This document shows, piece after piece, positions 19-51,612 of a DNA stretch of 64,000 nucleotides. Under the pieces are notes generated by a model. It searched no databases and was not told the DNA's origin. It worked only from the letters and a program-made list of their open reading frames with translations. The number at the start of each line of letters is the position of its first letter. Position 1 is the stretch's first letter. Both the position numbers and the translations under genes were made by a program. The stretch comes from Octopus vulgaris. Its lineage: Eukaryota. The DNA is taken from positions 60,388,001 through 60,452,000 of the forward strand of contig OX597827.1 in the NCBI GenBank assembly GCA_951406725.2, given 5' to 3'.

Positions 19-1512
19 ATGTCTAAACAGAAAGAGTCGCAGAATAAAGAAGTTTCCCTCGTTCGTGAAGTTTGTGGGGAAACATCCCCTTCAAAAGACA
101 TGTTTATTAAACATGGAGAGATGCACAAAACACAGAAAGGTAGTAACAACAAAAATTCTTGTGAACCTGTTTCAACATTCTCTACACTTTTACCTCAATA
201 CATTAAACGTGGAGAGATAAGTAAAACAGAGAAAGGTAGTATGAAGGATATTTCTGAATCTGTTTCAACATTGACTTCACTTTTACCTCAATACAGTAAA
301 CATGGAGGGATGCACAAAATAGAAAAAGGTAATAATAACAATAATTCTTGTGAATCTGTTTCAACAACGCCTTCACTTTTACCTCAATACAGTAAACATG
401 GAGAGAGAAATAAAACAGAGAAAGGTAGTATCAAGGATATTTCTGATTCTATTTCAACATTGACTTCACTTTTACCTCAATATATTAAACATGGAGAGCT
501 AAACAAAGGAGAAAAAGATGATAACAAAGATACTTCTGAATCTGTTTCAACACTGTCTTCACTTTTACCTCAATGCATTAAACCTGGAGAGACAAATAAG
601 CCAGAGAAAGATGGTGACAAGGATATTTCTGAATCTGTTTCATCATTGTCTTCACTTTTACCTCCGTTCATTAAACATGGGGAGATAAACAAAGCAGAAA
701 AAGATGGTAACAAGAACACTTCTTCAGGATCTGTTTCGACATTATCTTCAATTTTACCTCAATACACCTGTGATATTTGTGGGAAATCTTTTCCCGCTAA
801 TAAGAAGTTAACTCGACACATACGAACACATTTTAGAGCAAAGATTTTTCAGTGTGATGTTTGTGGAAATTCATTCTCCCAAAAGAGTGATCGAGACCGA
901 CACAAGAGGGTCCATTCTGGAGAAAGACCCTACCCTTGTGATGTATGTGGGAAATTCTTTTCCCGAAACAGCCATTTAAAAATCCACAAATTGACCCACT
1001 CAGGTATAAAACCTCATCGCTGTGAGACTTGTGGAAAATCGTTCTCACAGAATTGTGATCTGGAAAGACATATACGTGTACACACAGGAGAGAGACCATT
1101 TAAATGTGATACTTGTGAAAAAAGATTCTCTCAAATTAACGAACTAGGAAGACATAAACGGATACATACAGGAGAAAAGCCATATTCGTGTGAATTTTGT
1201 GAGAAAACCTTTTCTTTAAATTGCATTTTAGTAAGACACAGACGAATTCATACTGGAGAAAAGCCCTATGTTTGTGAATTTTGTAAGAAATCGTTTTCCC
1301 AAAATAGCATTCTTGTAAAACATTTGCGAATGCACAATGGTGGGAAACCTTATCAATGTAAGATTTGTGGTGAGGCATTCACAACAAAACGCCTTTTATC
1401 TGACCACACAAGAACACATACTGCAGATGGTCCTTATCCCTGTCAACTTTGTGGCGAAATCTTTTCTCAATATACAGATATAGTAAAGCATTTAGCAATA
1501 CACACTGGCTGA
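19..1512 (+). CDS. C2H2 zinc-finger protein (9 tandem fingers, N-terminal 31-32 aa repeats); paralog A
   Basis: 497-aa ORF with nine C-x2-C-x12-H-x3-H fingers, mostly with TGEKP-type linkers. The first ATG matches that of the paralog. The 5' UTR lies outside the window. Confidence 0.93.
   Translation: MSKQKESQNKEVSLVREVCGETSPSKDMFIKHGEMHKTQKGSNNKNSCEPVSTFSTLLPQYIKRGEISKTEKGSMKDISESVSTLTSLLPQYSKHGGMHKIEKGNNNNNSCESVSTTPSLLPQYSKHGERNKTEKGSIKDISDSISTLTSLLPQYIKHGELNKGEKDDNKDTSESVSTLSSLLPQCIKPGETNKPEKDGDKDISESVSSLSSLLPPFIKHGEINKAEKDGNKNTSSGSVSTLSSILPQYTCDICGKSFPANKKLTRHIRTHFRAKIFQCDVCGNSFSQKSDRDRHKRVHSGERPYPCDVCGKFFSRNSHLKIHKLTHSGIKPHRCETCGKSFSQNCDLERHIRVHTGERPFKCDTCEKRFSQINELGRHKRIHTGEKPYSCEFCEKTFSLNCILVRHRRIHTGEKPYVCEFCKKSFSQNSILVKHLRMHNGGKPYQCKICGEAFTTKRLLSDHTRTHTADGPYPCQLCGEIFSQYTDIVKHLAIHTG
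109..768 (+). repeat. Coding tandem repeat, 7 units of 93-96 bp (KHGE...LLPQY)
   Basis: Seven 31-32 aa units are visible in the translation. Units 1+2 resemble units 3+4. Confidence 0.9.
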
Positions 1513-2667
1513 GGAACGTATTGTCATGAGGTTTACAAGCAGAGGATTTGATGAAGTAAAGAACTTTTCTTGGCATACAAAAATACATGCAATCAAAAGA
1601 ATTTAAACTTTTAATTTTGTGTGTGAGGACATATATTGGATATAAATTGATTGATTTGGACACAAATACATAAGGGATAAACTTTTCTGTCTGAGTAAGA
1701 TATTTCTTTTTTCTCCTGTCCATTGCTTGATGAGGTCACCCAATTAAATTGTTCTTCTAATAGATGGTCACTTTGAAGTTCTAAAGAAGCAAACATAAGG
1801 CAAAACATTCAAGAATGACACAGTAATTCTCCTGTCCATTGCTTGATGAGGTCACCCAATTAAATTGTTCTACAGTAACTTTGATATTTTATAAGAAAAG
1901 TAAATAATACATTTACTGATATGCATTAAACACAGTTATGCTGGAATTAAATAAATAACGAGTCACACAAAGCAACATTGAATAAAATATAATTGTACTC
2001 AACTACATTTAGCACTTTGCTATAGGGCTGTGAAAGATGAATTCATTATTCACTGCTGACAACGTACAGTGATTCGGAAACACATGCGCCCTACAATCCA
2101 GTGACATCCTTCATAGCTTTATTTGTTTTCATACATTTGTTCATGAGGTGTATTTTCTCCTGGGACTATTATCACAGCGAAAAGTTTTCCCGTATCTAAA
2201 TGTTTTTTTTTTTTTGGTGGGGTTTTTTTTTCACACAAGATGAAATTTTGAAATGCCTATGCTGATGTTATGAATGTAACAAAACTTTGAAAGAAAACAC
2301 TGAAAATTGTTGAATTTGGAGTTGTATGATGGCAGATATTGGTGAAGTTATGGTCAAAGAAATCAAGGAAGGACATAACATATCAGAGAGGAATTACTGT
2401 TGTTATATAAGTATTATGGCATGTGTTAGCTGGTGAAATCATAATGCAATTTCGATTCCTTGTCATGAACAACCAAGATAATTATACCAGTTTGTTGGTG
2501 TAATACAAGTGAATGAAAATGTAATGTGTGTTGGTGATGGAAGGGTATTTGGGGAAAATGGATCAAGAAACATTTGAGAATAAATAATTAGGTTTCATGT
2601 TTTGAAAGAATTTTAACATTGTGATGCAGAGAGACATTTTGTATTCCAGAATGGCAAAAATGTCCTT

Positions 2668-3055
2668 TAACCTTCCAGCATTTAAACCAACCATATCCTG
2701 CAAAAATAATGTACCCGTTTTATCTTCAAACTGGCCTCTCACATTGCCAAGTTAAAAACAAATGCTTAAGAACTATCACGTTTTAGGTATTGATCTCTTG
2801 GATTAAAAGAGGAAAGACGTAACCATTTCCTGTATATTAACTGCTTTGTATTTTATTGATCCAGAGGAAATTATGAGCAAAGTTAACTCATCCTATGTAA
2901 AAAAAAATCACTGGAAAATGTTACAATTTTATTCTAAAAATAAACAATCACGTCATTGAAATCTCAAAGCTACAAGGTGATGCATGACTAATTCATATCA
3001 ATGTGAATAAACAGACATTACATTTGTCAGAGAAATCTGGATGCTAAAAGTTTAA
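2668..3055. mobile_element. piggyBac-like MITE, degenerate, with internal insertion
   Basis: ttaaccttccagcattt...gctaaaagtttaa. Homologous to the copy at 4263-4484 and TTAA-flanked. Confidence 0.55.
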
Positions 3056-3108
3056 ATCAAGGAGAAAAGGAGAAAGAATCAGCTGAAAATGTTTCATCTG
3101 GAGTCACT

Positions 3109-3445
3109 TTACTCTTTTACTTGTTTCAGTCATTATTCTTTGTAAGCCTAGTACTTATTCTATCGGCCTCTTTTTGCCGAACCGCTAAGTTACTGGGACG
3201 TAAACACACCAGCATCGATTGTCAAGCGATGTTGGGGGGGGGGGGGGGCAAACACAGACACACACACACATATATATATATATATACACATATGACAGGC
3301 TTCTTTCAATTTCCGTCTACCAAATCCATTCACAAGGCTTTGGTTGGCCCGAGGCTATAGTAGAAGACACTTGCCCAAGGTACCACGCAGTGGGACTGAA
3401 CCCGGAACCATTTGGTTTGTAAGCAAGCTACTTACCACACGGCCG
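3109..3445 (-). mobile_element. tRNA-derived CORE-type SINE (octopus OR-like family)
   Basis: Reverse complement of the gtgtggtaagtagcttgcttac...accttgggcaagtgtcttc consensus seen in many copies here. ACCTTGGGCAAGT resembles the MIR/CORE motif. Confidence 0.8.
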
Positions 3446-4262
3446 CTCAGCTTTTTTTATCATAGAAAAGTCAACACCCACCACTTGTCTACTGCTCCTT
3501 CTACAATAATGCATGACTCTCAGTGGTGGTATCATGAGTTTTTGTCTTTTGCTACCTGTTTGGTTGCATCTATGAAATATAAATAACACCAGAAATCAGA
3601 TGTTACTATAAAGCATGCTCACCAATATTTCATTAAAAAATTATTTCTTCTTTAGTATTTCACAGACATTTCTTTGAATCAGAATGAATTTAATTTGAAA
3701 TTTAAATTTGCAATTGTCAAATTAAAAACGAATGCTTAAGAACAAAATAGACATTTTCACTGTTTTTAGATATTGATCTCTTGGATTAAAAGAGGAAAGA
3801 CGTAACCATTTCATGTATATTAACTGCTTCGTATTTTATTGATCCAGAAGAAATTATGGGCAAGGTTAACTCATCCTATGTAAAAAAAAAAATCACAGGA
3901 AAATTTTGATAAATGACTGATTTAATAGGTTTTATTTAAAACATTGAATAAAGTGTGATTTTTCTTTTTCAAGTATATGTGATGGCATTTTTATTTTCAT
4001 TATTTATGGTATTAAATGAAATATAACCTTTTGTTTTTCCTGTGGTTGTATTATACTGTTTACTAATTGACCTCCCAGCGAAATTCTAAACATGGAACTA
4101 AGGTGTGTGAACCAAAATTCTGTAATACATTTAGTTGTTGCTGTTATTGTGGCTAATTAGCTTACCGGTCAAAGGCATTCCAGTGAAGACCTTCCTGTTT
4201 TATTTTCAGGCATCGCTTATCTAAGAGTACTTTATTCCATGTGTTGTTTTGTTTTGTTTTTC

Positions 4263-4484
4263 TTAACCCTTTAGCATTTAAACTGGCCATATCCAGCCCA
4301 AATATTTTATTTGTTTTATGTTCAAACTAGCCAGATCTTACTTCTCACACGTAGCCTACAATGTCACTTTAAACATAATCACATCATTGGATTCTCAAGG
4401 TTACAAACAATGCAGGATAAATTCAAAATGATGTGAATAAATATGCATTATAGCTGATTGAATAATCTGAACAATAAAGGGTTA
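4263..4484. mobile_element. piggyBac-like MITE
   Basis: TTAA-CCCTTTA...TAAAGGG-TTAA termini. Confidence 0.7.
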
Positions 4485-4694
4485 AAATAACAGAGTGTGA
4501 TTTGAAGAAATTTGTCTGTTGTTTCTAGCAGATTGAGCAGCCTGTCTTGTTAGCCCATAATGCAATTTTCTTTGATGTGCTTTCCAGTCAGAACTATCTT
4601 AGAAATACATTATCCACTGTGTAGTTCTGTGTTTAAAAACAATAATGAATGATTTAAAAGGAATTTGGTTATTATTTTTAACAGGACAGATGAC

Positions 4695-4950
4695 TGCATA
4701 CAGATTTCTTTATAGGTTCAAATAATAATCCTTTCTAATTTTGGCGCAAAGTCAGAAATTTGGAAGAAAGGAGGCAAATTAATTACATCGACCCCTGCAT
4801 TTTGCTGACACTTTATTTTATCAGCTCTGAAAGGAAGAAAGGTAAAGCTGACCTCAGCAGGTTTTGAACCCAGAATGTAAAGTGTTGGAAGAAATGCTTC
4901 TGAGCATTTTGTCCAATGCACTAATGATTCTTCCTACTCTCCACCTTATT
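4695..4950 (-). mobile_element. SINE family 2, degenerate
   Basis: Similar to the reverse complement of the 32221-32455 copy. Confidence 0.6.
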
Positions 4951-6257
4951 GACCAAGTTATGAAAGCAACATAACGAAGAGAAATAATTAGCTTAGATGA
5001 GATGTTCTTTTAAATTTGTGCTAGGACACTGCTGGTGTCACCAATGCCCTCTTCTTAGTGAGGTGTCTACAGAAGAATTTCTTAGCAAAGAGAGCAAATA
5101 TCAGTCTTTCACACATTAATTTGTGTAGGTTGAACTATGCAAAACATTATAGAAAGAAACCTAACTGTTTCTTTCAATACATACATCTAAAGTGAAATTT
5201 TTTCAGGGGCCTTTAAAATACTTTTGTGGATCCCCAATTTACAATTTTGTTATGTAGACCCCCAAAAATCCTATACAGACCTTGGTTGAGAACCACTGCT
5301 TTTAAGGATCTCTAGAGTAATGTTACTCAACAGCTTGCATACCTTTTTTTTGGAGGTACGCTACATCTAACATTAACATGTCCCCTTCCCTTTTAGAAAG
5401 TAATTTGAGGGAAATTTTGGCTGCTAGTTCTAACAAGTCAATCTATCAAACAGAGTATCTTTTATTTGTTCATGCTGCAAACATTAGAAAATAGTATCCA
5501 CTTGGGTTATCCCTATATGGAGTTAATAATTACCCTACACCATAAACTCATTTCCTGACTGTATAAATTTTATATATTTCTGACCATGAACATCTTATAG
5601 AAATATAATCCTACATAAATTTATGTCCCAGAATGATATAACATAATGACATATTACTTAGTATGCTATCAAAAAGGATCCCCCAGTAAGTTTACCATTA
5701 CGAAAATAATGCTTTGGTTTTTATTGTCTTCATTGTTCTAAATAAAATTGATATATCAAACATTGTTAATAGTGATGCTAGCAGTGAAAGAACATAGCCT
5801 AGTAGTTAGGTTAGTATTGGGTTCACATCACATGGTGGTGAGTTCAATTCTTAGACTGGGCAGCATGTTGTGTCCTTGAGAGCTGTTGTGTCTAAGACTG
5901 GATCCCTTTCTTAACACCAGCCACTTTTCAGGTGTAGTAGGTGCCTTTTGGAGGTGGGGTTATTAACACTGGCAAAGTCACCATGTGACTTACATGATCA
6001 GAGAGCTACGGCATCAGAGAAAGAGAAATGATGGCAAGTTTGGATTAGGTTTTGAGAAATTAAAATACAATGGGAGCGACAGGTAAGGGTTTTATTTGCT
6101 GAGAGTGTTAATAGAGAAGCTAAGTGTTGAGGAAGAGAAATAAAAGGGAAAGAGTAGTAGCAGGGCTTAGTGAGAGTGAAAAGGATGGTGGGATAGGGTG
6201 AAATAGAAAATTCAGGGCTACTCTGTAATATATATGAATATATATAACAACATGCAG

Positions 6258-6335
6258 CTCAGTCTGGGATTCGAGCTCACAACCTCACGATCATAAGCTC
6301 GACGCTCTAACCACTGAGCCATGCATCTTCACTAT
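6258..6335 (-). mobile_element. tRNA-like SINE head
   Basis: Minus strand reads tggctcagtggttagagcg...gctcgaatccc (A and B boxes). No clean acceptor stem. Similar to the heads at 61165 and 61395. Confidence 0.55.
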
Positions 6336-6414
6336 GGCTACTACACTTTCAATTACTAGAATACTAATAGAAAATATCTACTACTTCTAGGGATTCTCCT
6401 GGATATTCAAGAAA

Positions 6415-6860
6415 AGCTGTTGCTTGTGCACTGTCAGTGTTTATTGCTTCTGCACCTCTGCTTATCTACCTGTGATACCACTGCATCTCTTGTGTGACCA
6501 TAGTTTGCACTGGGTACTATGTGGCATTTCTAACAACTCCTTTTCTATATGTTAAGCAAGGATATTTCCCTGATGGAAGCAGAATCCTATTTGTTTGCCC
6601 ACTTAACTAAAACTTTAGTTTTTACTATTAACTTTGAATCCCTTTGCTTCCAAGTTCTGTTTTCACTCTTGGAATTTCTTTTCTAATTCTACTACAAATT
6701 CAGCTGCAAGAATAAGATCATCAGCATACAGTAGGTCCATGGGCAACTGGCCTTAAACACTATTATGACCTGAATGACTGTGATAAATAAGAAGAGACAG
6801 AACCAAGCCTTGTACACAAAATTCCTCATCATACTCATTGCTAACTCTCATATATTTCCC
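6415..6860 (-). pseudogene. RTE-clade LINE reverse-transcriptase fragment
   Basis: Minus-strand translation gives CPWTLLYADDLILAAE...LEAKGFKVN..KTKVL, interrupted by stops. Confidence 0.75.
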
Positions 6861-7119
6861 AAACTAGTCTCAGCTTAACTATCTTATCACACACTCTGAC
6901 TACCTCGATCACTTTGCCTACTCATTTCTCTGCCAAAAGTATGCCTTCACAGTCTACACCATCACTATTGCTTGCCCAAGATTCTCATGCATATATTTGC
7001 ATACTTTTTTCTATTTTTGGACAGAATTTTCCATAGGCATCAACACAAACTTTCTCACTCATAACACCTGTATGTTCTGAAAATGTAATTTTCCCAAATA
7101 AAAAGCACTTCATATTCAA

Positions 7120-7201
7120 AGCTCTGATGAAGCTATAGAGTGTTATCCAGGTACTCAACTAAGAGTCCACCACATCTTATTAGCAGAAACAGTTGTAAGC
7201 T
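7120..7201 (+). ncRNA. Type I hammerhead ribozyme motif
   Basis: agct-CTGATGA-a-gcta...tagc-a-GAAA-cagttg-TA-agct: stems I and II pair and the core is intact. Confidence 0.65.
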
Positions 7202-7274
7202 AATGAAGTTTATTACATAACCTTTGTTGTTTCTGGTGTCATCACTTAGTTCCTAGGCATATATTATATATCAT

Positions 7275-7630
7275 AGGCACAGGAGTGGCTGTGTGGTAAG
7301 TAGCTTGCTTACCAACCACATGGTTCCGGGTTCAGTCCCACCGCATGGCACCTTGGGCAAGTGTCTTCTACTATAGCCTCGAGCTGACCAAAACCTTGTG
7401 AGTGGATTTGGTAGGCGGAAACTGAAAGAAGCCCATTGTATATATATGTGTGTGTCTGTGTTTGTCTCCCCAACATCACTTGACAACTGATGCTGTGGTG
7501 TGTTTACGTCCCCGCAACTTAGCGGTTCGGCAAAAGAGACCAATAGAATAAGTCCTGGGATCGATTAGCTTGACTAAAGGTGGTGCTCCAGCATGGTCAC
7601 AGTCAAATGACTGAAACAAGTAAAAAAGAG
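7275..7630 (+). mobile_element. CORE-type SINE (OR-like)
   Basis: Full-length match to the other copies. Confidence 0.8.
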
Positions 7631-7648
7631 TATATATATATATACATA

Positions 7649-8843
7649 TCAGGTCAAGATTTTGAACTGAAAGTTTATTTTACTTTATCTCAACAAAAAG
7701 CAATATAGTTAATCAAAGTATACACCTAAATTATCAAAACAATTTTGCCATTTTATCAGAAGCTTATTTATGCTGGCAGCAAAGAATTTTGGAGAGCAAG
7801 AGGTGATGAAATCATGAAAGGCTGTTTTTGCATCTTCTTCAGATTTGAAGTTTTTTTTTTCCTTGCAAAAAGTTGTCTAATGCCTGGAAAATGTGAGTCA
7901 GTCGATGCAAGGTGTGGTAAGTACAATGGATGACAGAGTACTTCCAAGTTCAGTTCCTGTAACTTGAGTAGCATTCTTTGTGTAACATGTGGTCGAGCAT
8001 TGTCTTGCAAGAGAACTGGCCTGTCTCTATTGACCTGATGTAGACATCTGCTGTAATTGACTTACCAGGTCTCATGAAGCTGTAGTGGATGACACCAGCA
8101 CTGGACCACCAAATAGACATCATTAGCTTTTTTTGGTGAATATTCTGTTTTGGATTGTTTTGGCACCTTGTCTCTATCCAACCACTGTGCAGAATGCTTG
8201 CTATTGTTGAAAAGAATTCATTTTTCATCACGTAACAATATGATGCAAAAATGGTTCACTCTTATGCCATGACAGCAAAAAACAGCAAGTTTCAAGATGT
8301 GCCATTTGATGCTCAATCAGTTTGTGTGGTACCCACTTGTTCAGCTTCTTTGCCATGCCAATTTGTTTCAGATGGGCCAATACAGTTGGAATCAAAACAT
8401 CAAACCTTGTTGCTAACTCACACGTAATTTGTGATGTATCTGCTTCCACTACATTTTTCAGCTTATTATCCACCTTGGCCTCAGGTCTAGCACAGGGCTG
8501 ATTTTCAAGAGTAAAGTCACCAGACTAGAACTTCTCAAACCATCAACATACAGTGCACCCATTTGCCACATCTTCACCAAACACCTCATTGATGTTTTCA
8601 ACTGTCTGGGATGCATTGGTTCCATGACAGAACCATAACACGAATTTTTTATCTATCCATGGGTTCACAAAAATTTATTTACAAGAGAAAACTTACAATA
8701 TAATCAGACACCATGAATTGCATTTCAAAAAGTGATGATGGAACTCTTCAATGTTGTAAAACAAAGAATTGTCAGGAAAAAACATTAGTTAACAACTGTC
8801 AAACTTGATGCATAAGAAAATCGAACATTTCATTCTTAATGAC

Positions 8844-8847
<4 letters not shown>
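7649..8847 (-). mobile_element. mariner transposon with decayed transposase
   Basis: Frameshifted ORFs contain WVPHKL, QDNARPH and HPLYLPHLASTDSHF (the YSPDLAPSD motif). Imperfect TIRs tcaggtca/tgacctaa are flanked by TA. Confidence 0.9.
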
Positions 8848-8881
<34 letters not shown>

Positions 8882-8885
<4 letters not shown>

Positions 8886-9255
8886 AGCAGTATCGCCCGG
8901 CGTTGCTCAGGTTTGTAAGGGAAATAACTATAAAGCATTTTTAGAGAGTTATAGCAAAAAATGGAAAAAAATATGGTAAATTTTTTTTGAGAGTTAAAAA
9001 AGGATGGAGTTGCGTCCCCTAGACAGTTTGTGGTTCGTGTTTCTGATTCTCGACCCCATGTCGAATTTATCGATTTTTTTTCAGAACTGGGGGAACTTTT
9101 CAAAATTTTGGCTGCGTTAGTTTTGAATTATGACATTGGGCTATGTGTGTGTCAAGTTTCATCAGAATCGGTTGAAAGCCGTGGTCAGGGTGAGGGTACA
9201 AGCAAACAGACACACAGAAACACGCACAGACAAACTGCCGTTTATATATAGAGAT
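8882..9255 (-). mobile_element. Non-autonomous Helitron/DINE-1-like element
   Basis: Minus strand starts atctctatatataaa, has a (CTGT)-type microsatellite near the 5' end, and ends in a GC hairpin followed by gcttgt. Confidence 0.55.
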
Positions 9256-9272
9256 ATATATATATATAAATA

Positions 9273-9667
9273 TGGAGTGGCTGTGTGGTAAGTAGCTTGT
9301 TTACCAACCACATGGTTCCGGGTTCAGTCCCACTGCGTGGCACCTTGGGCAAGTGTCTTCTACTATAGCCTCGGGCTGACCAAAGCCTTGTGAGTGGATT
9401 TGGTAGACGGAAACTGAAAGAAGCCCGTCGTATATATGTATATATACATATATGTGTGTGTGTATGTTTGTGTGTCTGTGTTTGTCCCCCTAGCATTGCT
9501 TGACAACCGATGCTAGTGTGTTTATGTCCCCGTTACTTAGCGGTTCGACAAATGAGACCGATAGAATAAGTACTGGGCTTACAAAAGAATAAGTCCCGGG
9601 GTCGAGTTGCTCGATTAAAGACGGTGCTCCAGCATGGCCGCAGAAAATGACTGAAACAAGTAAAAGA

Positions 9668-9669
<2 letters not shown>
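9273..9669 (+). mobile_element. CORE-type SINE (OR-like)
   Basis: Full-length copy. Confidence 0.8.
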
Positions 9670-9707
<38 letters not shown>

Positions 9708-9710
<3 letters not shown>

Positions 9711-9866
9711 ATAAAAATAAGCAACAAGGATATCCAAGGTAGAGTAGTGCAATTGTTTCATGCTACTTCATTTTATTAAACACTGTAAGTATTACATCAG
9801 TTTTAAACAATTTTGAAACAATTGTACTACTCTACCTTGGATATCCTTGTTGCTTATTTTGATTAT
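9708..9866. repeat. Inverted repeat (about 53-bp arms), Penelope-like remnant
   Basis: Arms 9708-9760 and 9814-9866. The right arm carries GAAA-caattg-TA, the 3' half of a hammerhead. Confidence 0.7.
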
Positions 9867-10344
9867 AATCACCCCATTTGATTTATATGGATAATACCAT
9901 ACAATATTCTGGTGCCTTTAACTTAAGTACCATATTCATCTGAATCTAAATTTTGCTGAACTTATATATATATAGATAGATATAGTTTCCATATCCAAAA
10001 TTTTATTCACAAGGCTTAGGTCAACCTAAAGCTTTTGATGATATACTGTGAAGTAGGCATCTTACTTCTGCATCCATATTTGGAAGAAAGAAATGGTGTG
10101 AGGATAAAAAAAAGAGAATAAAAAACAATCAATTCTTTAATATTTATTGGTTCTTTTGAATGCATAATGTATATTATCAATTGATATAAATTTTAAAAAG
10201 AAAATAAAATCATTTCATGCTTTCTTTTTGAAGGTGGGAGAAGTAACCAGAGGTGGGGAGAGAATGACAAACAAAAGATTAACTATAAATAACAAATAAG
10301 TTTTCAATACAAGGCTTTATATTCTTTATTTTTATGTAAAGAAC

Positions 10345-12290
10345 AAGCTGTGAAATATGTGGCAAATATTTCTATGTGAATTCTAACCTTGTAATCCACA
10401 AACGTATACACAATGGAGAGAAGAAAAAAAATACAAAAAAAAAAAAACAGGTTTTAAATAAATAAAAAGAAAAAAAAATTAATTAACAGTCATTGTGAAA
10501 CCTATGTAGGATTTCAATGTCTGAGAACTGTCCACTTGAAACAGGTGGAAAATCATTCTTTGATAATTTTAAAACTTGTAGTAGACAAACGAGTACAGAG
10601 TACAGAATCTTTTAGTGAAGGCTGAGTAGCCTCATTACTCAGAGAGATACACAGAGCAACAAAATCTTACTGCTGTGATATTTCTGGACAATTGTACTGA
10701 CTCAAAAGAGGTTGATGCTACAGAACAGTAAAACAATTGACTCGAGTAAGATTTCTCGATAAAAATATGAACTACAAAAACCTCTCTCTTTCTGTCCATA
10801 TAAGTATTTGCACTCTAAATATAAAAAGGACATTTATCTGTGCTAAATTTTTGGGTAGTCATGAGTTTAAAATTTTGCCTCAACAATTCACATTTGAGTC
10901 ACAGAGCCAGTGAAAAACCTTATTACTGTGATATTTGTGGAAAATCATTTTGCTACTTTTTGTGGGTCTTTTGGTTAATGTCACAAAGACATGTCAGGAA
11001 TATGCCTTACGTTAACCAGATAAATTTCAAAGAGTTTTCAAAGAAATATTCATGTAAAGTTGTAAGAAATGCTACACCAATATGTCATACTAAACAGACA
11101 GATAATAAAAACAGGCATAAGGTTCATTTCAAAGAAATATTCTTGTAAACTTATGAAAAATGCTACAACAAAATGTTATGTTAGGTAGACATAAGCTTCA
11201 TTTCAAAGAAATGTTCGTGAAAAGTTTTAAGAAATGCTTCACCAAAATGTCACATTAGGTACACAGATAATAAAAACAGGCATAAAGTTCATTTCAACTA
11301 AATATTCTTGTAAACTTGTGAAAAATGCTACACCAAAATGTTATATTAGGTAGACATAAGTTTCATTTCAAAGAAATATTCACGTAAAGTTATAAGAAAT
11401 GCTACACCAAAATGTTATATTAGGTAGACAGACATAAGGTTAATTTTGGTTGGGTTCCTGTTTTTATAACTTCGTCAGAGAAGCCAGGTAGTGTCTATGA
11501 CCCTTGCAGGCTCTAAAACACAACAACACTGTGGAATGTGTGGTAAAACATTATCTAAACAAAAACCATTCACTTTACACAGAAAAATTCATTGTTGTTG
11601 CAGTCAGGTTTGTGAAAATTTCAATTTTTTTTTTAATATTTTAATTCTCTCTAAACAGCGGTACTTCAGGAAAAAAAAAACATTATGGTACACATTGGAG
11701 GAAAGCCCCATCATTGTGAAATTTGTGGGAAATCTTCTCTGAATATTCAACACTTGTGAATCCTAAATGTGTCTGCATTCAAGAAAATCCCTACCACTGT
11801 GAAATTTGTGGAAAATATTTTGCCGGAAATAGTTATTTAAAGAAATATGAAAATTCACATTACAGAAAAATCTTATCACTGTGAGCTCTATGGTAAATCC
11901 TTGAAGACATTAAACTTGTAGTCCTCACACATATTTGTAGGATGAATCTGTATCACTGTGTAATGTGAGGAATTATTATCTGTCTGTGAATTCTTGCTTT
12001 CTACTTCATAAACAACGATGCGTTATGAAAGACTTATTTGACAGAAATTTTACTTCAGTGCCTACAATTTATACAGCAAGAGTACATTAATGCATGATTT
12101 GTGGTGCAAAGTAATTATACTCAATGACATATAAGAGTGCTGACTGTAATATCTGCATTAAATACTTTTGACAGAAATTTGGCAGAGAGACAAAAATAAA
12201 TATATTCAAAGGATAGAAAAACCTGTTCAGTTTAATTTTCATAGCAAAACTGTCATAGGAAAATTTTCATTGATATAACATGAAAAGGTT
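10345..12290 (+). pseudogene. Decayed C2H2 zinc-finger array
   Basis: Fragments CEICGKYFYVNSNLVIHKRIHNGEK, SEKPYYCDICGKSF, HCGMCGKT, HCEICGKS and YHCEICGKYF, broken by stops, frameshifts, a poly-A run and a minisatellite. Confidence 0.85.
11030..11440. repeat. Minisatellite with alternating about 91/73-bp units
   Basis: A tttcaaagaaatattc-like anchor recurs near 11036, 11127, 11200, 11292 and 11366. Confidence 0.85.
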
Positions 12291-12572
12291 CACAAATTTA
12301 ATAAAAGTTTATTGAAGAAGAAAAAGATTGTGAAACAATCATTTCTTACAGCTTCATTTCTTATAGCCAAAATTGAAGATCTTTGGACAGAAAAAAAATT
12401 ATCAAAAAGTTCAATGATACGATTTTTAATATTTATCGTGAAAATTTCACTGAGATAATTTTAAAGAAAAAAATAGTCAAGATTTGTTGCTCACAAAATT
12501 TGGACAAGACAGCTTACCAGATATACTCTTGAAGAGGTAAATATTTTTACATTTTTATGTAACGCCATGGAG

Positions 12573-15500: not shown

Positions 15501-17320
15501 TCTTATGAATGTTCATTACTATGTTTCACTTTATTCATGTTCTAGATATCACTAAAGTTCATGATGTGACCTGCACATAAAGGATCATAGATTAAGAGAT
15601 TTCAGCACCAGATGCTTTGTAAAATCTACTGACATTTTATCTATCATGTCACCAACAAGAACGTGTGTAATTATAAAGAATAGGGAAAATATTTTTACCC
15701 AAAAAAACTAAAGTACAATGAAGTGCTTTCCCATAATACATGCCAATAGTATTTGGAAACTGCACACCAGACACAACCAAGTTGTGATTTGTTATATAGG
15801 ATATTGATTATCTGAAAAGATAGGTGCAACACAAATTAATGGAACACCATCAGAACAGAAATCCTGTTATGAAAGATCAAAATCGTATCAAAGAAAAATC
15901 CCAAAATTGTCCCACTGTACACTGTTGTTTACATCAGGAAACATCAGCTGACAAGAAATTGGGCATTTGTAGCTATGGCCAGAAATTGAAAGCACTGTTG
16001 CAAAATGTGGTGAAAATAGTCAATTCTATTATTCACCTACAAGCAAAAGAATTTCAACTGTTTTCAGAGCTATAAAGAGAATATCTCCACAGATCAAGAT
16101 TCTTCTCTTGTATTCTGAAGTTCAGTGGTTGTTACATGGAAGAGTCCTTGATAAAATGAAATGTTTGTACATTTTACTAGGCAAAGTAACAAGAAGGCAA
16201 GGCTTCACAATGATGATTTTTTTTTTTTTTAGCTGACCAAACTGTGTTACATGACTTTTGCTTTTTGAATATTTGAATCAGTTCACTTGTCACTTCAAGG
16301 TAAAAAAAAAAAAAAGGTAACAACTTCAATGCCCTTGGGAAAGGAGAAGATACCATGAAAATCAAACATATGCCATAGCAATGTTCAGAAGGTAATTTCT
16401 CACATTTTGAAGTTTTTCAAAGAGAATAAGTGGGAAAGAAAAACACACTGATCTGGAGAAAACACTGAGGGATAGCATTTTTGGTTATCAGAAGGACTTG
16501 AAGAAATCAGATCCATTTATCACCAACATTAAGTAGCAGATTTGGTGAACATATTAGAAGTGTTGATGGAGTTTCAGTATAACTTCAGTCATAAATCATC
16601 TTCTGAGATGTACTCCTACTGTGAAGACTATCAGCTGTTGGATAACTTGTTTTCCCTTCAATACACATCAACTGACTTGAAGGTCCTCCACCATTGGCAA
16701 TAATGGCAATTTTTTTCCTGCTGAATGAGGATTTTCAACATTGGTAAGATTGCAAAAAAGAGAGAGAGAGAGAGAGAGAACAGAATTCATTTCAGGCTGT
16801 TGATCCAATAATGTGAGTTGCTTTGGAAAAGAAACAATCTCAGAGAAACTTGGTAGCAGAATACAGGAATATCCTAGTTATTGGTGATAAAAAATATACA
16901 TGTAAGTCTGGGTATAAGTCAACTGCTTGTCATTTATTTCTGATAAGCATACACAAGAAGGAAAAAAAACATTGATTCTAAGAATCTAATTCTAAATTCT
17001 AAAATTGTTGATTACTAATTTTATATAAAGTAGAAAAAAATTTTCATAATTTTTCCATCCTTAAATTTTTATCACTCTGATGAATTTTCTTTATACATTT
17101 TTAGGATGTCCAAGAAGTTGAATAATTAAACTTAAGATGAATTAATTTGTTTTTTGCTCATGTGAGAAAATCAATTATAATTAAATAAAAATTATACAAT
17201 GGAGTAAGATGAAAATTACTAAAAAGAAAAATAAACATGAGAAAATTTAGTTGTGGGTGAATGAAATTTCATGATAAGGACTCATACATGAATGACACAA
17301 AAATAGTTTAAGAAGCACTG
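12573..17320 (+). mobile_element. Degenerate hAT (Buster/Charlie-like) transposon
   Basis: TIRs caatgcttcttaaact and agtttaagaagcactg. Transposase remnants: CIAMTTDDATAM (about 14762), HCCLHQE (about 15920), LLLYSEVQWL (about 16102) and GFSTL (about 16729). Confidence 0.7.
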
Positions 17321-20300
17321 CTATAGCACAAGAGTTAAGCTGCTGGTGAACTGAATCAAAAGGACCAAATTCAATTCCTTTTTAAAGCGAATTTAGTTGT
17401 AAGTTAATGAAATTTTAAGATGAAGACTAGAGGGTGAATAACACAGAAATAGTTTAAACAACACTGCTATAGAGCAAATGTTTAACCACATTCAATTCCA
17501 ATCTGAAGCAAATTCATTTTTGCCACTCATGAATTGATGATTATTTTACTGAATAAGAAATTTCTATTTCCATGTTCCCCTTAGATTCCCCAGTACCAAT
17601 AAGCACATTGCTGTGTTCCTCTATTACAGCAGATTTTATAAAATGATCGGATGGTATTAAGTTATTAAGTGTCTCTATTTTAACAAATTACCAATGGTTT
17701 TTCAGTGACACTTAGCATACACCACCATTAAACAAATTAAAAAAAGAGCTTTAGCAAGTCAATGAGGGCATTTGACTTGTCAGAAATTAAACTTCTCCCA
17801 AACTACATTCCACTGTCTTAAAAAGGAAAAAAAAAAAAAAAAAAACGGAATGGGTACATTAGAAAACATGATCCTGTATTAACCCTAGACAGATGGAATG
17901 ATTGTGGTTGGAATGTTTTTGATCACTGGTGCACTTAATCAAGAGTGAACTGGATGCTAATCAACAGTAAGACAAGATCTTTGGTTTGTTTGTTACACTT
18001 TATAAAAAAGGTAATTTATCAAAAGCATTCCATCTTTTATGTTGTATTTTAAGATAGCAGTCACCATGAACTATCCATAGATTGTGGATATAGTTTGTGC
18101 TGCTTTTTAACTTGAAGGGCTTAATTAGTCATATTAACCCCTGGTACTTATTTTATCAAACTCTAATTGTCAAACCGCAAAATTACAGTAGTAAAAAAAA
18201 GACACAAATAGACACCAGCACCAGTTTTCAAACCAGTGTAAACATAATCACAGACAAGGACACAAACACATACATCTACGACAGGCTTCTCCACAAGATA
18301 TTGGTCAACCAGAGACTTGCTCATGGTGCCATGCATGAAACCATGGGGTAATAATTACATTTTTCATTATTTTTTTTTTTGTTGGCAATCAGCAGTTTTG
18401 AAATATTTTCAAAGCAGAAGATAACAAATCCAAATTTTCTTTCTTTTTTTTTTTCTTTTCTGCAGGAATTCAAGTATAAAATAAAATGTCAATGCAAACC
18501 AGTATTTCTGTTTTCTGTATTTGGTGACATGTCAGCATGAGAATATCACCAAACTGTTCGTTCTTTACTGCAGAATATCATTAAAAAAAATGTTTTTGTT
18601 CATTTTTGCAATACATATAGAAGTTTCCAGAAAAGAAAGATTTGATTAATAATACTAGGATGAATATATATGGAAGGATTCATTAAATTGGTGGTTATTC
18701 AATGGAAATAAGCAGGAAGGAATGAGTTCATTTATAATAAATGCGTGAGGCATGAACAGTAATATAATAATTTCATAAAATAAAATGTCATCTTTAAATT
18801 ACAGTATATACATCATGTTTATAAACATATACAAAAAGAAAAAAAAAAGAGAGGGATAAAAAGAGATACTACAGAATATTTTGAAGATACACTCTTAATA
18901 AAGACACATTAAACATTAAATTCTTCCATTTGTGCATAGAACATAGTTTAAAGAAGTGATTTTCAAAACACAAAATCACACATCTCATGATATAAATTTC
19001 CACATTTTGTTATGGTAGTATATTTGAAAAACTGTACAGTTGGATATATAACGTGAATTATCAAAGCAATACATCATGTCACCAGTCTGTAAGAGTTTGC
19101 AAAGGTGGTGGACACAGTCTCTTTTTCCTTTGACTAACTTATAAAAAAAAAAAATCAAAATATCATAATGATGTATAGGATATTAGTTATATATCATAGA
19201 AAATATCATTGAGATATACTGTAAAAAATACAGAAATGAGAATAGTGTATTAAACTAGTATTAAGTGAATGACAATTTACATAATGCAAATTAAATGGAA
19301 CAGTTTATCAGAAATATATTACATCATATAATTTGAGGAGATGGAATGGTAGGGACTGCCCTATTGTGTAATTAAAAACAATTGCCTGATAATTAGAGAC
19401 ACAAGATGCATGTCTAGAAAGCCTGTCTTTCCTGTTTCAAATTGCTGCTCATAACAGCCAATGTCTAGCTGTTTATATCTTATCAGCAACTAATGTAATT
19501 CATCTGTGGCCAAGATGATTAATTCATAACAGCTCAGTCCACCTTGCTGTGGTAACTTAAATAGTTACTATAGCAAGGTGAAACAGCCTACAGTTGTAAG
19601 CATCAGGTTTTTCTTATTTCTGTTAATTTGCAGTGCAGATTTAACATCCTCCTATGGGGTATAGGATATTTAGGAATGGGCTGTTAGGATGACTTATCCT
19701 AAAACACTAGATGAAAACAAAATGCCCCTACAACCTGATGGCTTATGGGACTCCCCACTTACCTCTATATCACCATCACCTGAGGAAAATCAATCAATCA
19801 ATATTATATTTATCTTCTGGCCTGGTATTTTGGGTGGTAGACACAATCCATTGTCCAATTTAACACAAACCCTTGGCTATCAAGTCCCTTTAGCAGATTC
19901 CACTCTGTTGCGAGCATTTGGGCCAGGTCTCCTGTCTAAGGATAACCTCCTCGTTCACCAGTTTCAGAAGCCATGGGCAATGCCCTTCCTCCCCTGACTA
20001 AATTATTCAAAAAACAAAAAAAAAATGGAAAAAAAAATCATAATGATTACATGAGCGTGCAGCAAAATGAGTTAAGATGCCCAATTAGGTGACTTCATTT
20101 ATTAAATAAATGCCACAGGACAAAACACAAATATCACAACATCTTATTGCCTTTAAACAAAACAGATCTATATATCTAAATAGATAAATTTTGTGGTGAA
20201 AATAAAGTCAGTCAAGATTGCAACTCAAGTCCAGTCCCTGGCTGTAGCCATTTGCCCACCATTTTAAGCCAACTAATACCATTAAAGGTCATGAGCCATG

Positions 20301-20364
20301 TGTATACAGGTATTTGTGCTTATTCAAATGAAAACAACATTTATCTCATTAGGATTAATGAAGA

Positions 20365-20500
20365 AGTGTTAGGAAGGGCATCCAGCTACAGAAACCAAGC
20401 CAAATCAGGCTGAAACCTGGTGCAGACTTCCAGCTCTGGTCAAACTGTCCAACCCATGCCAGCATGGAAAACGGACATTAAAAAATGATGATGATGATGC
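20365..20500 (+). mobile_element. RTE LINE 3' end with (GAT)n tail
   Basis: ttaggaagggcatccagc...catggaaaacggac followed by gatgatgat. Confidence 0.7.
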
Positions 20501-23239
20501 CGGCGATGAAATATTTCTTTCAGCATTTCTTGTTAAAAAGCAGGAGGTATTTAAGCAAGAGTTAAATGTTTTTTTTTTATTTTAACAATCTGAAAGCAAA
20601 AGACATCTAACCATAATTCACATTCAATCGCTCATGAAAAGCAAGTGAAGACTGCAATATAAGGGCAGTACTTTTTTGTGTCTATTTGACTTTCATTTTT
20701 TACACTAATATTTTGGGGCAAGTAGTGAAACTCACTCCATCATATTTTAATTCCTCCATAAGTTTAAGGGCATTTCATCATTGATATCAGCTTATAATTT
20801 ATCTCGAGCCTCAACTTAAATCACACCCTAACATGTTAAAAAAAGACACATTGGACCATGAAGACAGAGATATTCAATGCCAGGAAACCTGACAGGATGG
20901 TTATGGAATGCCTTTGATTATCAGTCTGCTCAACAAAAGGTAACTAGGGCTCAAGAACAACTAAATGCATTACAGGGTTTAGATCCAGGCACCAGTTTCA
21001 ATTTTAATTTTGCTATTAATTCTCTCAGGGTCAATAAAATAAGTAATAGTTATTACACCAGAAATGGCTACATTTTTTTCCTTTTTCATCAACTGACCCC
21101 ACCAAAAAAAATCAATATTTAACCCTTTTATTACCCAACTGATGTTGCAATACATTGACCTTTATTTCAATTAAATTTGAAATTAACAAATTTAGTAAAA
21201 TAATTTGTCGTCATTAAGTTGGTGTTTAGGACACCAACCTTTTTGAAATTTTGACAGATTTTAATTCTGAACACTTTAAAACACAAAATGATGCATCATA
21301 AAAGGGTAGAATGAAGCAGGTTCTTCCTGTGTGAACTATTCAGTTATAACAGTACAGAACATGTAGACAAACACAGGAGACCATCATGTGGCTCATAAAA
21401 TTTCATGCTCCATACATTCACAATTATTTCAACAAAGGAGCTATTAGTCTGTGTCGCACAACCAATGAGAAACAGCAGCCAAATTGCTCTCAAATAACAC
21501 TCCTTTGAAATCACACTTTGGACAAATGTAGTCACTTGTGCACAAAAAGGCAGGTTGATAACAACAGCAATGCATTTGTATGATCAGAATTAACTCGAGA
21601 CTAAGCATTTCAAACTTGACCAAACGAATATAGCCATCAGTTGTATAGTCAATGGCTCATACTCAACCATCCTTCCCCTAAGAAACATTTTTAAGTATGC
21701 TTTAGGTGGATAAGATATTGGATATCCTTCTCTTTGATTGTGCCTATGATCATAACACTTTATTCTGCATTTCTTCAGTCTCCTTAGCTGTTGAGAATAA
21801 GTACTCATTAATCTAAGTATGTTCAACTTCAAACCAGAAGCCATATTCGGTCTAGATTTTGGTTCTGATTATAGACTTCATAAGATGGCCAATTTGTATC
21901 ATAAACTATTTCATAAGGCAATGGTTAAGTCTCTATACAATTACTCAACCTGCTAGAAATAGCAGCCAAATTCCAGCTTAAATCATACCCAACTGTTTTT
22001 ATGTATAGAAATTATATATATATATATAATTTTAACATCCACTTTTCCATGCTTGCATAGGTTAGAAGGAATTTGGCAAGGCAGATTTTCTATGGTCGGA
22101 TACCCTTCCTGTCACCAATTCTCACCTCTTTCCAAACAAGGTAATATTTGCCTATCACCAGAGGTGTTTCCATAGCAGGTTGGAAATGAAGGACACACTC
22201 AGTATGATGATGACACTCATTTACAACTATCAATGTGGTGCCTAGACTAGGGAACATACACATGACAAGTTTCCTTCAGTTTCCAGCTACCACATCTACA
22301 CCCAAGGCTTTGATCAGTCCACAGTTATAATAGAAGACACTTGCCCAAGGTGACACACAGTGGGACTGTATACAAAACCACCTGATTGGAAAGCACACAG
22401 CCAACCCTACACTTATTTACACAATATAAATATAGCGTGTATGTGATGGTGGGGAGGAATGTATATATCATGTGTAAGTGCATTGCTAAATGATTTACTG
22501 GGTTGATTTATATAGTGGTCTCCTGCATAAATATGCAGTTTGAAATATTTAAATACGAGGTGAAAAGATGCTGTGACATTCATGCCTTTTTAAGGCCATT
22601 TTCCAGTTTAAATGAATGAAGTGGTTCCAGAAAGGAACAGAAACCATATTGTGAATTCTACAATAACTCACTGTAACACTTGCCGCTACACTCATGTAAT
22701 GATAGAAATTCCTTAATATTTGACTCCCTGATTATTCATGTCCATCCTTGGGTTTTTTCTATCATAACTTCAACATTATCTGCCAGTCACCAAATAGCCA
22801 TACTACTCAAAATTCAAAAAAGTCTCAGAAGTTTCTTTCAGTCTTGTTATATTCATAAATTCAATAATGGCATTTCAATATTCCATCTTGTGTGCAAAAA
22901 AAAAAAAATCTTTGTGATTAGGAATTGCTGTGTCATTCTTGAATGTTTTGCCTTATGTTTCCTTCTTTAGAACTTCAAAGTGACCATCTATTAGTAGAAC
23001 AATTTAATTGGGTGACCTCATCAAGCAATGGACAGGAGAAAAAAAGAAATATCTTACTCAGACAGAAAAGTTTATCCCTTATGTATTTGTGTCCAAATCA
23101 ATCAATTTATATCCAATATATGTCCTCACACACAAAATTAAAAGTTTAAATTCTTTTGATTGCATGTATTTTTGTATGCCAAGAAAAGTTCTTTACTTCA
23201 TCAAATCCTCTGCTTGTAAACCTCATGACAATACGTTCC

Positions 23240-24730
23240 TCAGCCAGTGTGTATTGCTAAATGCTTTACTATATCTGTATATTGAGAAAAGATTTCGCCA
23301 CAAAGTTGACAGGGATAAGGACCATCTGCAGTATGTGTTCTTGTGTGGTCAGATAAAAGGCGTTTTGTTGTGAATGCCTCACCACAAATCTTACATTGAT
23401 AAGGTTTCCCACCATTGTGCATTCGCAAATGTTTTACAAGAATGCTATTTTGGGAAAACGTTTTCTTACAAAACTCACAAACATAGGGCTTTTCTCCAGT
23501 ATGAATTCGTCTGTGTCTTACGAGAACACAGTTTAAAGTAAATGTTTTCTTACAAAACTCACAGGCATATGGCTTTTCCCCTGTATGTATTCGTTTATGC
23601 CTTCCCAGTTCGTTAATTTGAGAGAATCTTTTTTCACAAGTATCACATTTAAATGGTCTCTCTCCTGTGTGTACACGTATATGTCTTTCCAGATCACAAT
23701 TCTGTGAGAACGATTTTCCACAAGTCTCACAGCGATGAGGTTTTATACCCGAGTGGGTCAATTTGTGAATTTTTAAATGGCTGTTCCGAGAAAAGAATTT
23801 CCCACATACATCACAAGGGTAAGGTTTCTCCCCAGAATGTATTCGCTTGTGTCGGTCTCGATCGCTTTTACGAGTGAAGGAATTTCCACAAACATCACAC
23901 TGGAAAATCTTTGCTCTGAAATGTGTTTGTATGTGTCGAGTTAACTTCTTATTAGCGGGAAAAGATTTCCCGCAAATATCACAGGCGTATTGAGGTATAA
24001 GTGAAGATAATGTCGAAACAGGTCCAGAAGCATCCTTGTTACCATCTTTATCTGCCTTGCTTATCTCCCCATGTTTAATGAACGGAGGTAAAAATGAAGA
24101 CAATGATGAAACGGGTCCAGAAGTATCCTTGTCACCATCTTTCTCTGGCTTATTTGTCTCTCCATGTTTAATGTACTGAGGTAAAAGTGAAGACAGTGTT
24201 GAAACAGATTCAGAAGTATCTTTGTTATCATCTTTTTCTCCTTTGTTTAGCTCTCCATGTTTAATATATTGAGGTAAAAGTGAAGTCAATGTTGAAACAG
24301 AATCAGAAATATCCTTCATACTACCTTTCTCTGTTTTATTTCTCTCTCCATGTTTACTGAATTGAGGTAAAAGTGAAGGCGTTGTTGAAACAGATTCACA
24401 AGAATTATTGTTATTATTACCTTTTTCTATTTTGTGCATTCCTCCATGTTTACTGTATTGAGGTAAAAGAGAAGTCAATGTTGAAACAGATTCAGAAATA
24501 TCCTTCATACTACCTTTCTCTGTTTTACTTATCTCTCCACGTTTAATGTATTGAGGTAAAAGTGTAGAGAATGTTGAAACAGGTTCACAAGAATTTTTGT
24601 TGTTACTACCTTTCTGTGTTTTGTGCATCTCTCCATGTTTAATAAACATGTCTTTTGAAGGGGATGTATCCCCACAAACTTCACAAACATAGGAAACCTC
24701 TTTACCCTGTGACTCTTTCTGTTCAGACAT
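23240..24730 (-). CDS. C2H2 zinc-finger protein (1 N-terminal finger plus 9 tandem fingers); paralog B
   Basis: The first in-frame ATG is at 24730 (MSEQKE); the ORF-track start at 24811 is a GTG. Highly similar to 19-1512. Confidence 0.93.
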   Translation of the reverse strand: MSEQKESQGKEVSYVCEVCGDTSPSKDMFIKHGEMHKTQKGSNNKNSCEPVSTFSTLLPQYIKRGEISKTEKGSMKDISESVSTLTSLLPQYSKHGGMHKIEKGNNNNNSCESVSTTPSLLPQFSKHGERNKTEKGSMKDISDSVSTLTSLLPQYIKHGELNKGEKDDNKDTSESVSTLSSLLPQYIKHGETNKPEKDGDKDTSGPVSSLSSFLPPFIKHGEISKADKDGNKDASGPVSTLSSLIPQYACDICGKSFPANKKLTRHIQTHFRAKIFQCDVCGNSFTRKSDRDRHKRIHSGEKPYPCDVCGKFFSRNSHLKIHKLTHSGIKPHRCETCGKSFSQNCDLERHIRVHTGERPFKCDTCEKRFSQINELGRHKRIHTGEKPYACEFCKKTFTLNCVLVRHRRIHTGEKPYVCEFCKKTFSQNSILVKHLRMHNGGKPYQCKICGEAFTTKRLLSDHTRTHTADGPYPCQLCGEIFSQYTDIVKHLAIHTG

Positions 24731-24989
24731 TTTGTCAGTGATATTAACCTTTATTGTCGGCACAATACTTGACAGAGAAGAATTGTCATTTTCAGTAAAG
24801 ATTGTAAACACAGAACTGCAAATATCAGTACATAATTTCTTCTGTCTGTCTACTTGTACATGTTTGTAGATAATTGATCATGGTCAGAAACAGTTGAATG
24901 AACCACACTTTGCATGAATCAACAACACTCTCCCACAATAATGTAGCTTCAGTTGAAATATTTCTTCACCTTCCTGGCAAAATGAATGC

Positions 24990-25012
24990 CTGAAAAATAC
25001 AATAAGATTTTC
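24990..25012 (-). promoter_or_regulatory. Probable splice acceptor of the paralog B coding exon
   Basis: Minus strand tcttattgtatttttcag|g, about 260 nt upstream of the ATG. Confidence 0.5.

Positions 25013-51581: not shown

Positions 51582-51612
<31 letters not shown>

What the first reader, a model, noticed from the sequence alone, without database searches (positions are those of the whole stretch)
19..24730. Inverted ZNF paralogs show mosaic identity: conversion tracts that spare specificity fingers
Seen: most of the repeat domain, fingers 8-9 and about 315 bp of 3' UTR (1512-1826 vs about 22925-23240) are almost identical. Fingers 1-3 and 5-6 carry many synonymous changes, and more distal 3' homology (about 2225-2400 vs 22700-22900) is much weaker. 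Amino-acid changes hit base-contacting helix positions: finger 2 position -1 is Q vs R, and finger 6 position +3 is I vs V. Inference: an old inverted duplication under repeated gene conversion, with selection keeping the DNA specificities different.
Basis: partly seen in the sequence, partly recalled or inferred. Interest (0 to 1): 0.7.

Follow-up and report, generated by a model that had tools for sequence, protein, structure and literature searches.

The report
Zinc-finger twins that overwrite each other
Two zinc-finger genes facing each other 21 kb apart in a likely octopus genome are identical in some stretches yet about a fifth different at their edges, most likely because they have repeatedly copied pieces onto each other; this is a known process, and only one of nine fingers hints that selection may keep their DNA targets different.

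Summary
Copy A (19-1512, +) and copy B (24730-23240, -) are tail-to-tail nine-finger C2H2 genes with 76 substitutions in 1829 bp, very unevenly spread: identical runs of 464, 197 and 143 bp, against a finger-2 peak (pS 0.62) and flanks about 22% diverged. It is not an assembly artefact: 4 of 5 DNA-like public runs give one contig across the 464-bp tract, and 4 of 4 keep fingers 1-2 as two forms. Old duplication plus repeated gene conversion is well supported. 'Selection spares specificity fingers' is only partly supported. Seven of 9 fingers have identical contact residues, 2 of 11 amino-acid changes at contact sites is what chance gives (2.0), finger-6 I/V is conservative, and some clusters match neighbouring repeats or fingers of the same gene. 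Finger 2 (Q/R at -1) stays a candidate: neutral simulations reached its peak in 2 of 1722 runs, protected-site ones in 34 of 1119. No distant orthologue was found. Precedents: ZXDA/ZXDB, ZFX/ZFY, opsins. The scan noted ordinary paralog conversion before in bacteria (e1-1564482, e1-1033760). New member of a known kind.

The parts
19..1512 (+). Copy A ORF, 497 aa: broken finger 0, seven ~31-aa repeats, nine C2H2 fingers
   Evidence: the ESM Atlas holds this exact sequence
23240..24730 (-). Copy B ORF, 496 aa, tail-to-tail with A; finger 0 intact
25..81 (+). Divergent island at finger 0 (10 differences); first Cys is Arg in A, intact in B (24691-24623)
   Evidence: both types seen in 4 of 4 runs
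82..278 (+). Identical tract, 197 bp (B 24667-24471)
106..766 (+). Seven tandem 93-96 bp units, from the helix end of finger 0 to the start of finger 1
573..1002 (+). Divergent island: repeats 6-7, 3-bp indel (717-719), fingers 1-3
847..930 (+). Finger 2 of A (B 23905-23822): 16 differences, pS 0.62; codon 880-882 Gln vs Arg at helix -1
1003..1145 (+). Identical tract, 143 bp, covers finger 4 (B 23749-23607)
1146..1291 (+). Divergent island, fingers 5-7 (17 differences); Ile/Val at finger 6 +3 (1225)
1292..1755 (+). Tract of 464 bp without substitutions: end of finger 7, fingers 8-9, stop, 243 bp of 3' UTR
   Evidence: one contig in runs X14, X15, X19, X20
22996..23460 (-). Partner of the 464-bp tract in B
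1827..2200 (+). A-only insertion of about 370 bp, starting with a 45-bp copy of 1711-1755; marks the 3' edge of high identity
2230..2470 (+). Old distal 3' homology (B about 22890-22625), 23% mismatches plus gaps
24749..25204 (-). B upstream region, homologous to A upstream of the window start (about -520 to 0), 22% mismatches in its distal part, with a shared splice-acceptor-like TTTTTCAG

Best explanation
A nine-finger C2H2 gene exists as two tail-to-tail copies 21 kb apart whose shared exon is a mosaic of identical and diverged stretches, likely because an old duplicate pair has been patchily overwritten by repeated gene conversion, with the diverged islands likely mostly neutral and finger 2 the only candidate for protection by selection. 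Shown: two copies, flanks about 22% diverged, zero-difference tracts, sharp edges at large indels. Inferred: purifying selection kept the exon similar enough to go on pairing, while indels let the flanks escape; islands are stretches not recently converted, and some clusters were added by unit-to-unit exchange within one gene. The two proteins are predicted to read nearly the same DNA, differing at most at finger 2.
For: Mosaic far beyond chance. Flanks 22-23% diverged on both sides, while 243 bp of UTR and about 49 synonymous sites show no substitution. High identity ends at a ~370-bp insertion on the 3' side and at 100-, 29-, 9- and 4-bp indels on the 5' side. Two copies found by DNA and protein search. 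Runs X14, X15, X19, X20 give one contig over the tract, at about twice the depth of single-copy flanks, with distinct A and B exits; X14, X15, X18, X20 keep fingers 1-2 as separate A and B contigs. Contact residues are identical in 7 of 9 fingers, with no enrichment of changes at contact sites. A 619-642 matches A repeat 2 over 24 bp and covers 4 A/B differences; B finger 6 matches B finger 7 over 20 bp and covers 4. Possible segregating tract edges at finger 3: X15 is A-type at 963-984 but B-type at 1002; X6 is A-type at F2 and F5-7 but B-type at F3.
Against: Finger 2 is more diverged than the flanks (11 of 18 synonymous sites vs 0.22, p = 0.0004; vs 0.35, p = 0.02). Neutral models reached 16 differences in a finger in only 2 of 1722 kept runs, against 34 of 1119 with protected sites. 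No donor for finger 2 was found within the gene or in the genome (next hit 77%). Differences lean towards the helix-coding stretch (18 of 41 in 24 of 84 bases, p = 0.03, window chosen after the fact). No GC rise in converted tracts. No orthologue tree, so 'repeated' rests on within-species patterns. Contigs drop small bubbles, so the finger-3 hints are weak.
Confidence: 0.6

Rival explanations
1. Selection shields finger 2 (and perhaps fingers 0 and 6) from conversion because A and B bind different sites; the Gln/Arg change at -1 would shift the finger-2 triplet from GCA to GCG (recognition code recalled, not tested). This is the Teshima-Innan divergence peak.
For: Finger 2 has the highest synonymous peak (pS 0.62, CI 0.37-0.83) and the only non-conservative contact change. 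Protected-site simulations give the peak about 25 times more often than neutral ones (34 of 1119 vs 2 of 1722). The B-type island has the full 18 differences in X14 and X15, 16 in X18, and 29 plus the 3-bp gap in X20.
Against: No excess of amino-acid change (F2 dN 0.07 vs dS 1.3; 2 of 11 at contact sites). Even the protected models reach the peak only 3% of the time, the settings are my own, and the statistic was chosen after seeing the data. Finger 2 has Arg instead of the usual Leu at +4 and a non-canonical linker to finger 1, so it may not contact DNA canonically. F6 I/V is conservative. The runs come from the same or very close species.
Confidence: 0.3
2. One recent replacement or re-duplication of the exon, followed by uneven mutation or selection, with no repeated conversion.
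For: One event would also give old flanks and a similar exon.
Against: Synonymous differences range from 0 to 0.62 between neighbouring fingers (heterogeneity p = 2e-5); one event needs three separate islands as old as the flanks to survive inside it.
Confidence: 0.07
3. The identical blocks come from assembly collapse or polishing, or the copies are two alleles assembled side by side.
For: One of the laid runs may be the source sample; the assembly method is not known here; Logan contigs drop short bubbles (the 85-bp finger 5-6 bubble was merged in X19, X20, X5, X6).
Against: 4 of 5 DNA-like runs from 4 studies give one contig over the tract with two exits (X18 has no contig there); the 167-bp fingers 1-2 segment stays as two contigs in 4 of 4; both copies have their own unique flanks in the same runs.
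Confidence: 0.03

Closest known systems
ZXDA/ZXDB (mammalian X-linked zinc-finger pair; PMC2724270, passages)
   Same: Two-copy C2H2 zinc-finger paralogs from an old duplication, with GENECONV tracts of about 460 bp in human and chimpanzee.
   Different: Conversion there is shown across several species; no finger-level island or contact change is discussed in the passages seen.
ZFX/ZFY exon 7 (PMC6125247, passages)
   Same: The zinc-finger exon is converted while the rest of the gene diverges.
   Different: X-Y pair, whole finger exon tends to be homogenised; here the pair is intrachromosomal and the finger exon itself is a mosaic.
Red/green opsin exon 5 peak (PMC3924837, passages) and Drosophila Pre28 CG18281/CG17637 (PMC2588116, passages)
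   Same: Neighbouring duplicates (about 24 kb for the opsins) with a local divergence peak amid converted sequence; model for the finger-2 reading.
   Different: There the peak is shared across species, with known functional or excess non-synonymous sites; here neither is shown.
BMP8A/B, DDX19A/B, TUBG1/2 mosaic evolution (PMC2720389, passages)
   Same: Two-copy pairs under 1 Mb apart, one inverted, with concerted and divergent segments.
   Different: Those pairs have multi-species trees and were tested for GC rise; no GC rise is seen here.
Cephalopod C2H2 expansion (PMC9068888, PMC12513265, PMC10547256; passages)
   Same: Poly-C2H2 genes in a cluster; four more finger arrays lie within 65 kb downstream of B.
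   Different: Conversion is mentioned for cephalopod protocadherins, not for C2H2 genes (0 occurrences of the word in PMC12513265 and PMC10547256).

Membership tests
Duplicate pair under interlocus gene conversion (mosaic evolution) | Two nearby copies, constant copy number | tested here: met
   2 matches in G000 by DNA and by protein (counts are lower bounds); stop codons 21.7 kb apart
Duplicate pair under interlocus gene conversion (mosaic evolution) | Identical tracts longer than chance inside older homology | tested here: met
   464 bp, 0 of 100000 permutations; flanks 22-23%
Duplicate pair under interlocus gene conversion (mosaic evolution) | Pattern present in independent data, not an assembly effect | tested here: met
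   4 of 5 DNA-like runs
Duplicate pair under interlocus gene conversion (mosaic evolution) | Paralogs closer than orthologs in converted segments | not testable with these tools
   No orthologue; G000 has no relatives held; runs of organisms B and C are too close and their contigs merge the copies
Duplicate pair under interlocus gene conversion (mosaic evolution) | Raised GC in converted tracts (common, not required) | tested here: not met
   GC3 0.23 in F8-9 vs 0.35 in F1-3; UTR tract 0.31 vs distal 0.33
Selection-maintained divergence peak (Teshima-Innan type) | Local peak flanked by homogenised sequence | tested here: met
   F2 pS 0.62; identical tract from 1003
Selection-maintained divergence peak (Teshima-Innan type) | Peak improbable under neutral conversion | tested here: inconclusive
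   2 of 1722 neutral vs 34 of 1119 protected runs; own settings, statistic chosen afterwards
Selection-maintained divergence peak (Teshima-Innan type) | Excess of amino-acid or functional-site changes in the peak | tested here: not met
   2 of 11 at contact sites vs 2.0 expected; dN far below dS
Selection-maintained divergence peak (Teshima-Innan type) | Same peak kept across species | tested here: inconclusive
   B-type island present in 4 of 4 runs with 3 organism labels, all very close
Selection-maintained divergence peak (Teshima-Innan type) | The copies differ in function | not testable with these tools
   Needs a binding assay
Kruppel-type poly-C2H2 zinc-finger gene | Tandem C-x2-C-x12-H-x3-H fingers with TGEKPY-like linkers | tested here: met
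   9 fingers per copy; best relatives are generic ZNFs at up to 52% identity
KRAB, SCAN or other named effector-domain ZNF | Recognised N-terminal effector domain | tested here: not met
   Pfam gives only a marginal HLH hit (E 4.4e-5, 23.6 bits vs cut-off 20.7)

The most novel reading that the evidence does not exclude
A single Gln/Arg change at the -1 position of finger 2, predicted to switch a GCA site to a CpG-containing GCG site, is held apart by selection while conversion erases the rest of the two genes. This would be a finger-level divergence peak in a zinc-finger pair, fed by a second layer of finger-to-finger and repeat-to-repeat exchange; a crossover in the finger-4 tract would also invert the 21-kb spacer and swap fingers 5-9 to give chimeric readers.
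Probability: 0.25. Interest if true: 0.55.

Novelty: new member of a known kind. Interest (0 to 1): 0.3.

Why it matters
Cephalopods have very large C2H2 families that are usually described as growing by duplication and divergence. This pair shows that conversion can keep old copies looking young (95.6% identical overall with flanks 22% apart), which misleads dating and orthology calls. If finger 2 is held by selection, it gives a compact natural test of whether one contact residue can justify keeping a duplicate zinc-finger gene. If not, it is a tidy example of a known process.

Tried and rejected
Orthologue hunt: N-terminal region search found nothing (273-870 aa only); exact look-ups found neither ORF; full-length and finger 7-9 searches gave only generic ZNFs; the one representative hit, P0121, is a bacterial TPR protein and was rejected. 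These blanks do not show that orthologues are absent. ESM Atlas: feature scores under 0.9 and TM under 0.35, leads only. Pfam HLH hit rejected: marginal score, repeats lack the basic region and second helix (bHLH pattern recalled). Third-gene donor for finger 2: not found. Expression: no RNA holder listed; runs X5 and X6 are only guessed to be RNA and hold A-type contigs and B-specific 3' flank, not used as evidence. X18 has no contig over the 464-bp tract, not counted either way. Dating against organism C was dropped: its A flanks differ from the reference at 13 of 332 and 13 of 420 bases but its B flank at 0 of 574. Mismatch-rejection simulations mostly ran to full divergence (17 of 1800 kept) and say little. 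The first difference list ignored the 3-bp gap and was replaced. GENECONV itself was not available; a longest-run and sum-of-squares permutation stood in. Searches found no report of conversion between cephalopod C2H2 paralogs; no supplements were opened.

Full report
Setting. The window is G000:C14:60388001-60452000 of a 2.8-Gb genome. The label 'octopus' comes from earlier scan notes on this genome and fits the large C2H2 family seen; no call of mine named the species. Six-frame scans find nine tandem C2H2 fingers at 763-1503 (+) and 23989-23249 (-), plus further arrays at about 59, 68, 75 and 85 kb. Copy A is a 497-aa ORF, copy B a 496-aa ORF, tail to tail. DNA and protein searches of the genome with the N-terminal part find these two places only.

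Observation. The alignment has 76 substitutions in 1829 bp, a 3-bp indel and a T-run indel. Differences per finger are 4, 16, 4, 0, 4, 11, 2, 0, 0. The longest runs without substitution are 464 (1292-1755), 197 (82-278) and 143 bp (1003-1145). None of 100000 random placements gave such a run, and synonymous differences alone are uneven among fingers (p = 2e-5). Homology continues on both sides at 22-23% mismatches with large indels, including about 520 bp upstream of the window start.

Artefact test. I laid 7 of the 24 listed runs. Of five DNA-like runs, X14, X15, X19 and X20 give a single contig across the 464-bp tract at roughly twice the depth of unique flanks (124 vs 55-60, 30 vs 9-16, 66 vs 35, 14 vs 7-10) with separate A and B exits; X18 has no contig there. 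Fingers 1-2 stay as separate A-type and B-type contigs in 4 of 4 runs, the B type with 18, 18 and 16 differences over 167 bp (the assembly has 18) and, in X20, 29 plus the gap over 294 bp (the assembly has 29). Limits: these are contigs, depth is not copy number, short bubbles are merged, and one run may be the source sample. They exclude a hidden 20% divergence in the tract, not single differences.

Mechanism. Old flanks, an exon with zero-difference tracts and edges that fall at large indels are what interlocus conversion predicts (PMC3924837, passages). Purifying selection alone cannot explain 243 bp of UTR and about 49 synonymous sites without a change. That conversion was repeated is inferred from three separate tracts and from weak hints of variable tract edges at finger 3 (X15, X6). 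A second layer is suggested by in-register matches within one copy: A 619-642 equals A repeat 2 over 24 bp and spans four A/B differences, and B finger 6 equals B finger 7 over 20 bp and spans four. So some clusters may be imported, not merely spared; shared ancestry of the units could also give such matches.

Selection clause. Residues -1, +2, +3, +6 are identical in 7 of 9 fingers. Two of 11 amino-acid changes hit these positions, as chance predicts. dN is 0.03-0.04 against dS 0.34-0.41 in the islands. Finger 6 I/V is conservative. Finger 2 is the exception: pS 0.62, above the flanks (p = 0.0004 at 0.22, 0.02 at 0.35), with no donor in the gene or genome. In forward simulations kept only if total divergence resembled the data, neutral conversion gave 16 or more differences in a finger in 2 of 1722 runs (2 of 954, 0 of 751, 0 of 17) and protected-site models in 34 of 1119 (15 of 726, 19 of 393). 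A simpler model pointed the same way. This favours shielding, but both rates are low, the settings are mine, local mutation-rate differences were not modelled and the flanks may understate the age. By the recalled recognition code, R6/D3 with Q or R at -1 would read GCA or GCG; finger 2 lacks the usual Leu at +4, so the prediction is soft. I put selection on finger 2 at about 0.3.

Comparison. Conversion between zinc-finger paralogs is known (ZXDA/ZXDB; ZFX/ZFY), as are mosaic inverted pairs and selected peaks. All papers were seen as passages only; Teshima and Innan 2008 was seen only as cited; no supplements were opened. Searches found no such report for cephalopod C2H2 genes. No orthologue could be obtained, so the defining tree test is open.

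Verdict. Real, well-supported mosaic conversion in an old inverted pair; a new member of a known kind. The title claim shrinks to one candidate finger. Interest 0.3.

Noticed in passing
window 106-766 (+) and 24643-23987 (-): The seven 93-96 bp repeats start with the helix end of finger 0 (IKHGEMH) and end at the start of finger 1 (LPQY), so they look like a tandem expansion of the finger 0-finger 1 spacer; no relatives found, marginal Pfam HLH hit.
   Followed up: partly
window 58-64 vs 24691-24685: B keeps an isolated N-terminal C2H2 finger; A has lost its first cysteine. Both types occur in 4 of 4 runs. This may be a larger functional difference than finger 6.
   Followed up: partly
window 50070-52980: A 2.9-kb element with 1.3-kb inverted arms (98.7% identical), flanked by an 8-bp direct repeat (50062-50069 and 52981-52988) and inserted into a SINE-like repeat; likely a young non-autonomous DNA transposon (8-bp duplications are typical of hAT elements, recalled)..
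   Followed up: partly
window 58978-59838 (-); G000 C14 at window-equivalent 68.0-68.6 kb (+), 75.5-76.5 kb (+), 85.3-86.7 kb (-): Further C2H2 arrays in alternating orientation; the 68-kb and 86-kb arrays are 74.5% identical and inverted, with no sign of recent homogenisation.
   Followed up: partly
window 10349-11900: Degraded zinc-finger remnants inside the spacer between A and B.
   Followed up: no
window 1827-1871: A local 45-bp duplication in A keeps the B-type base at the position matching 1756, so A's base at 1756 is likely the newer one.
   Followed up: yes
window 1706 / 23045: The T-run is 6 long in A and 7 in B in the assembly, 8 in contigs of X14, X15, X19, X20, X5 and 6 in X6; the one indel in the long tract is unstable or an error.
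   Followed up: yes
L001 950-1281 and 3326-3742; window 22450-23023: In run X20 (organism C) the A flanks differ from the reference by 3-4% while the B flank has 0 of 574 differences; unexplained.
   Followed up: no
window 36648-36926 (-): Short ORF with a single atypical C2H2 finger, possibly a retroelement remnant.
   Followed up: no
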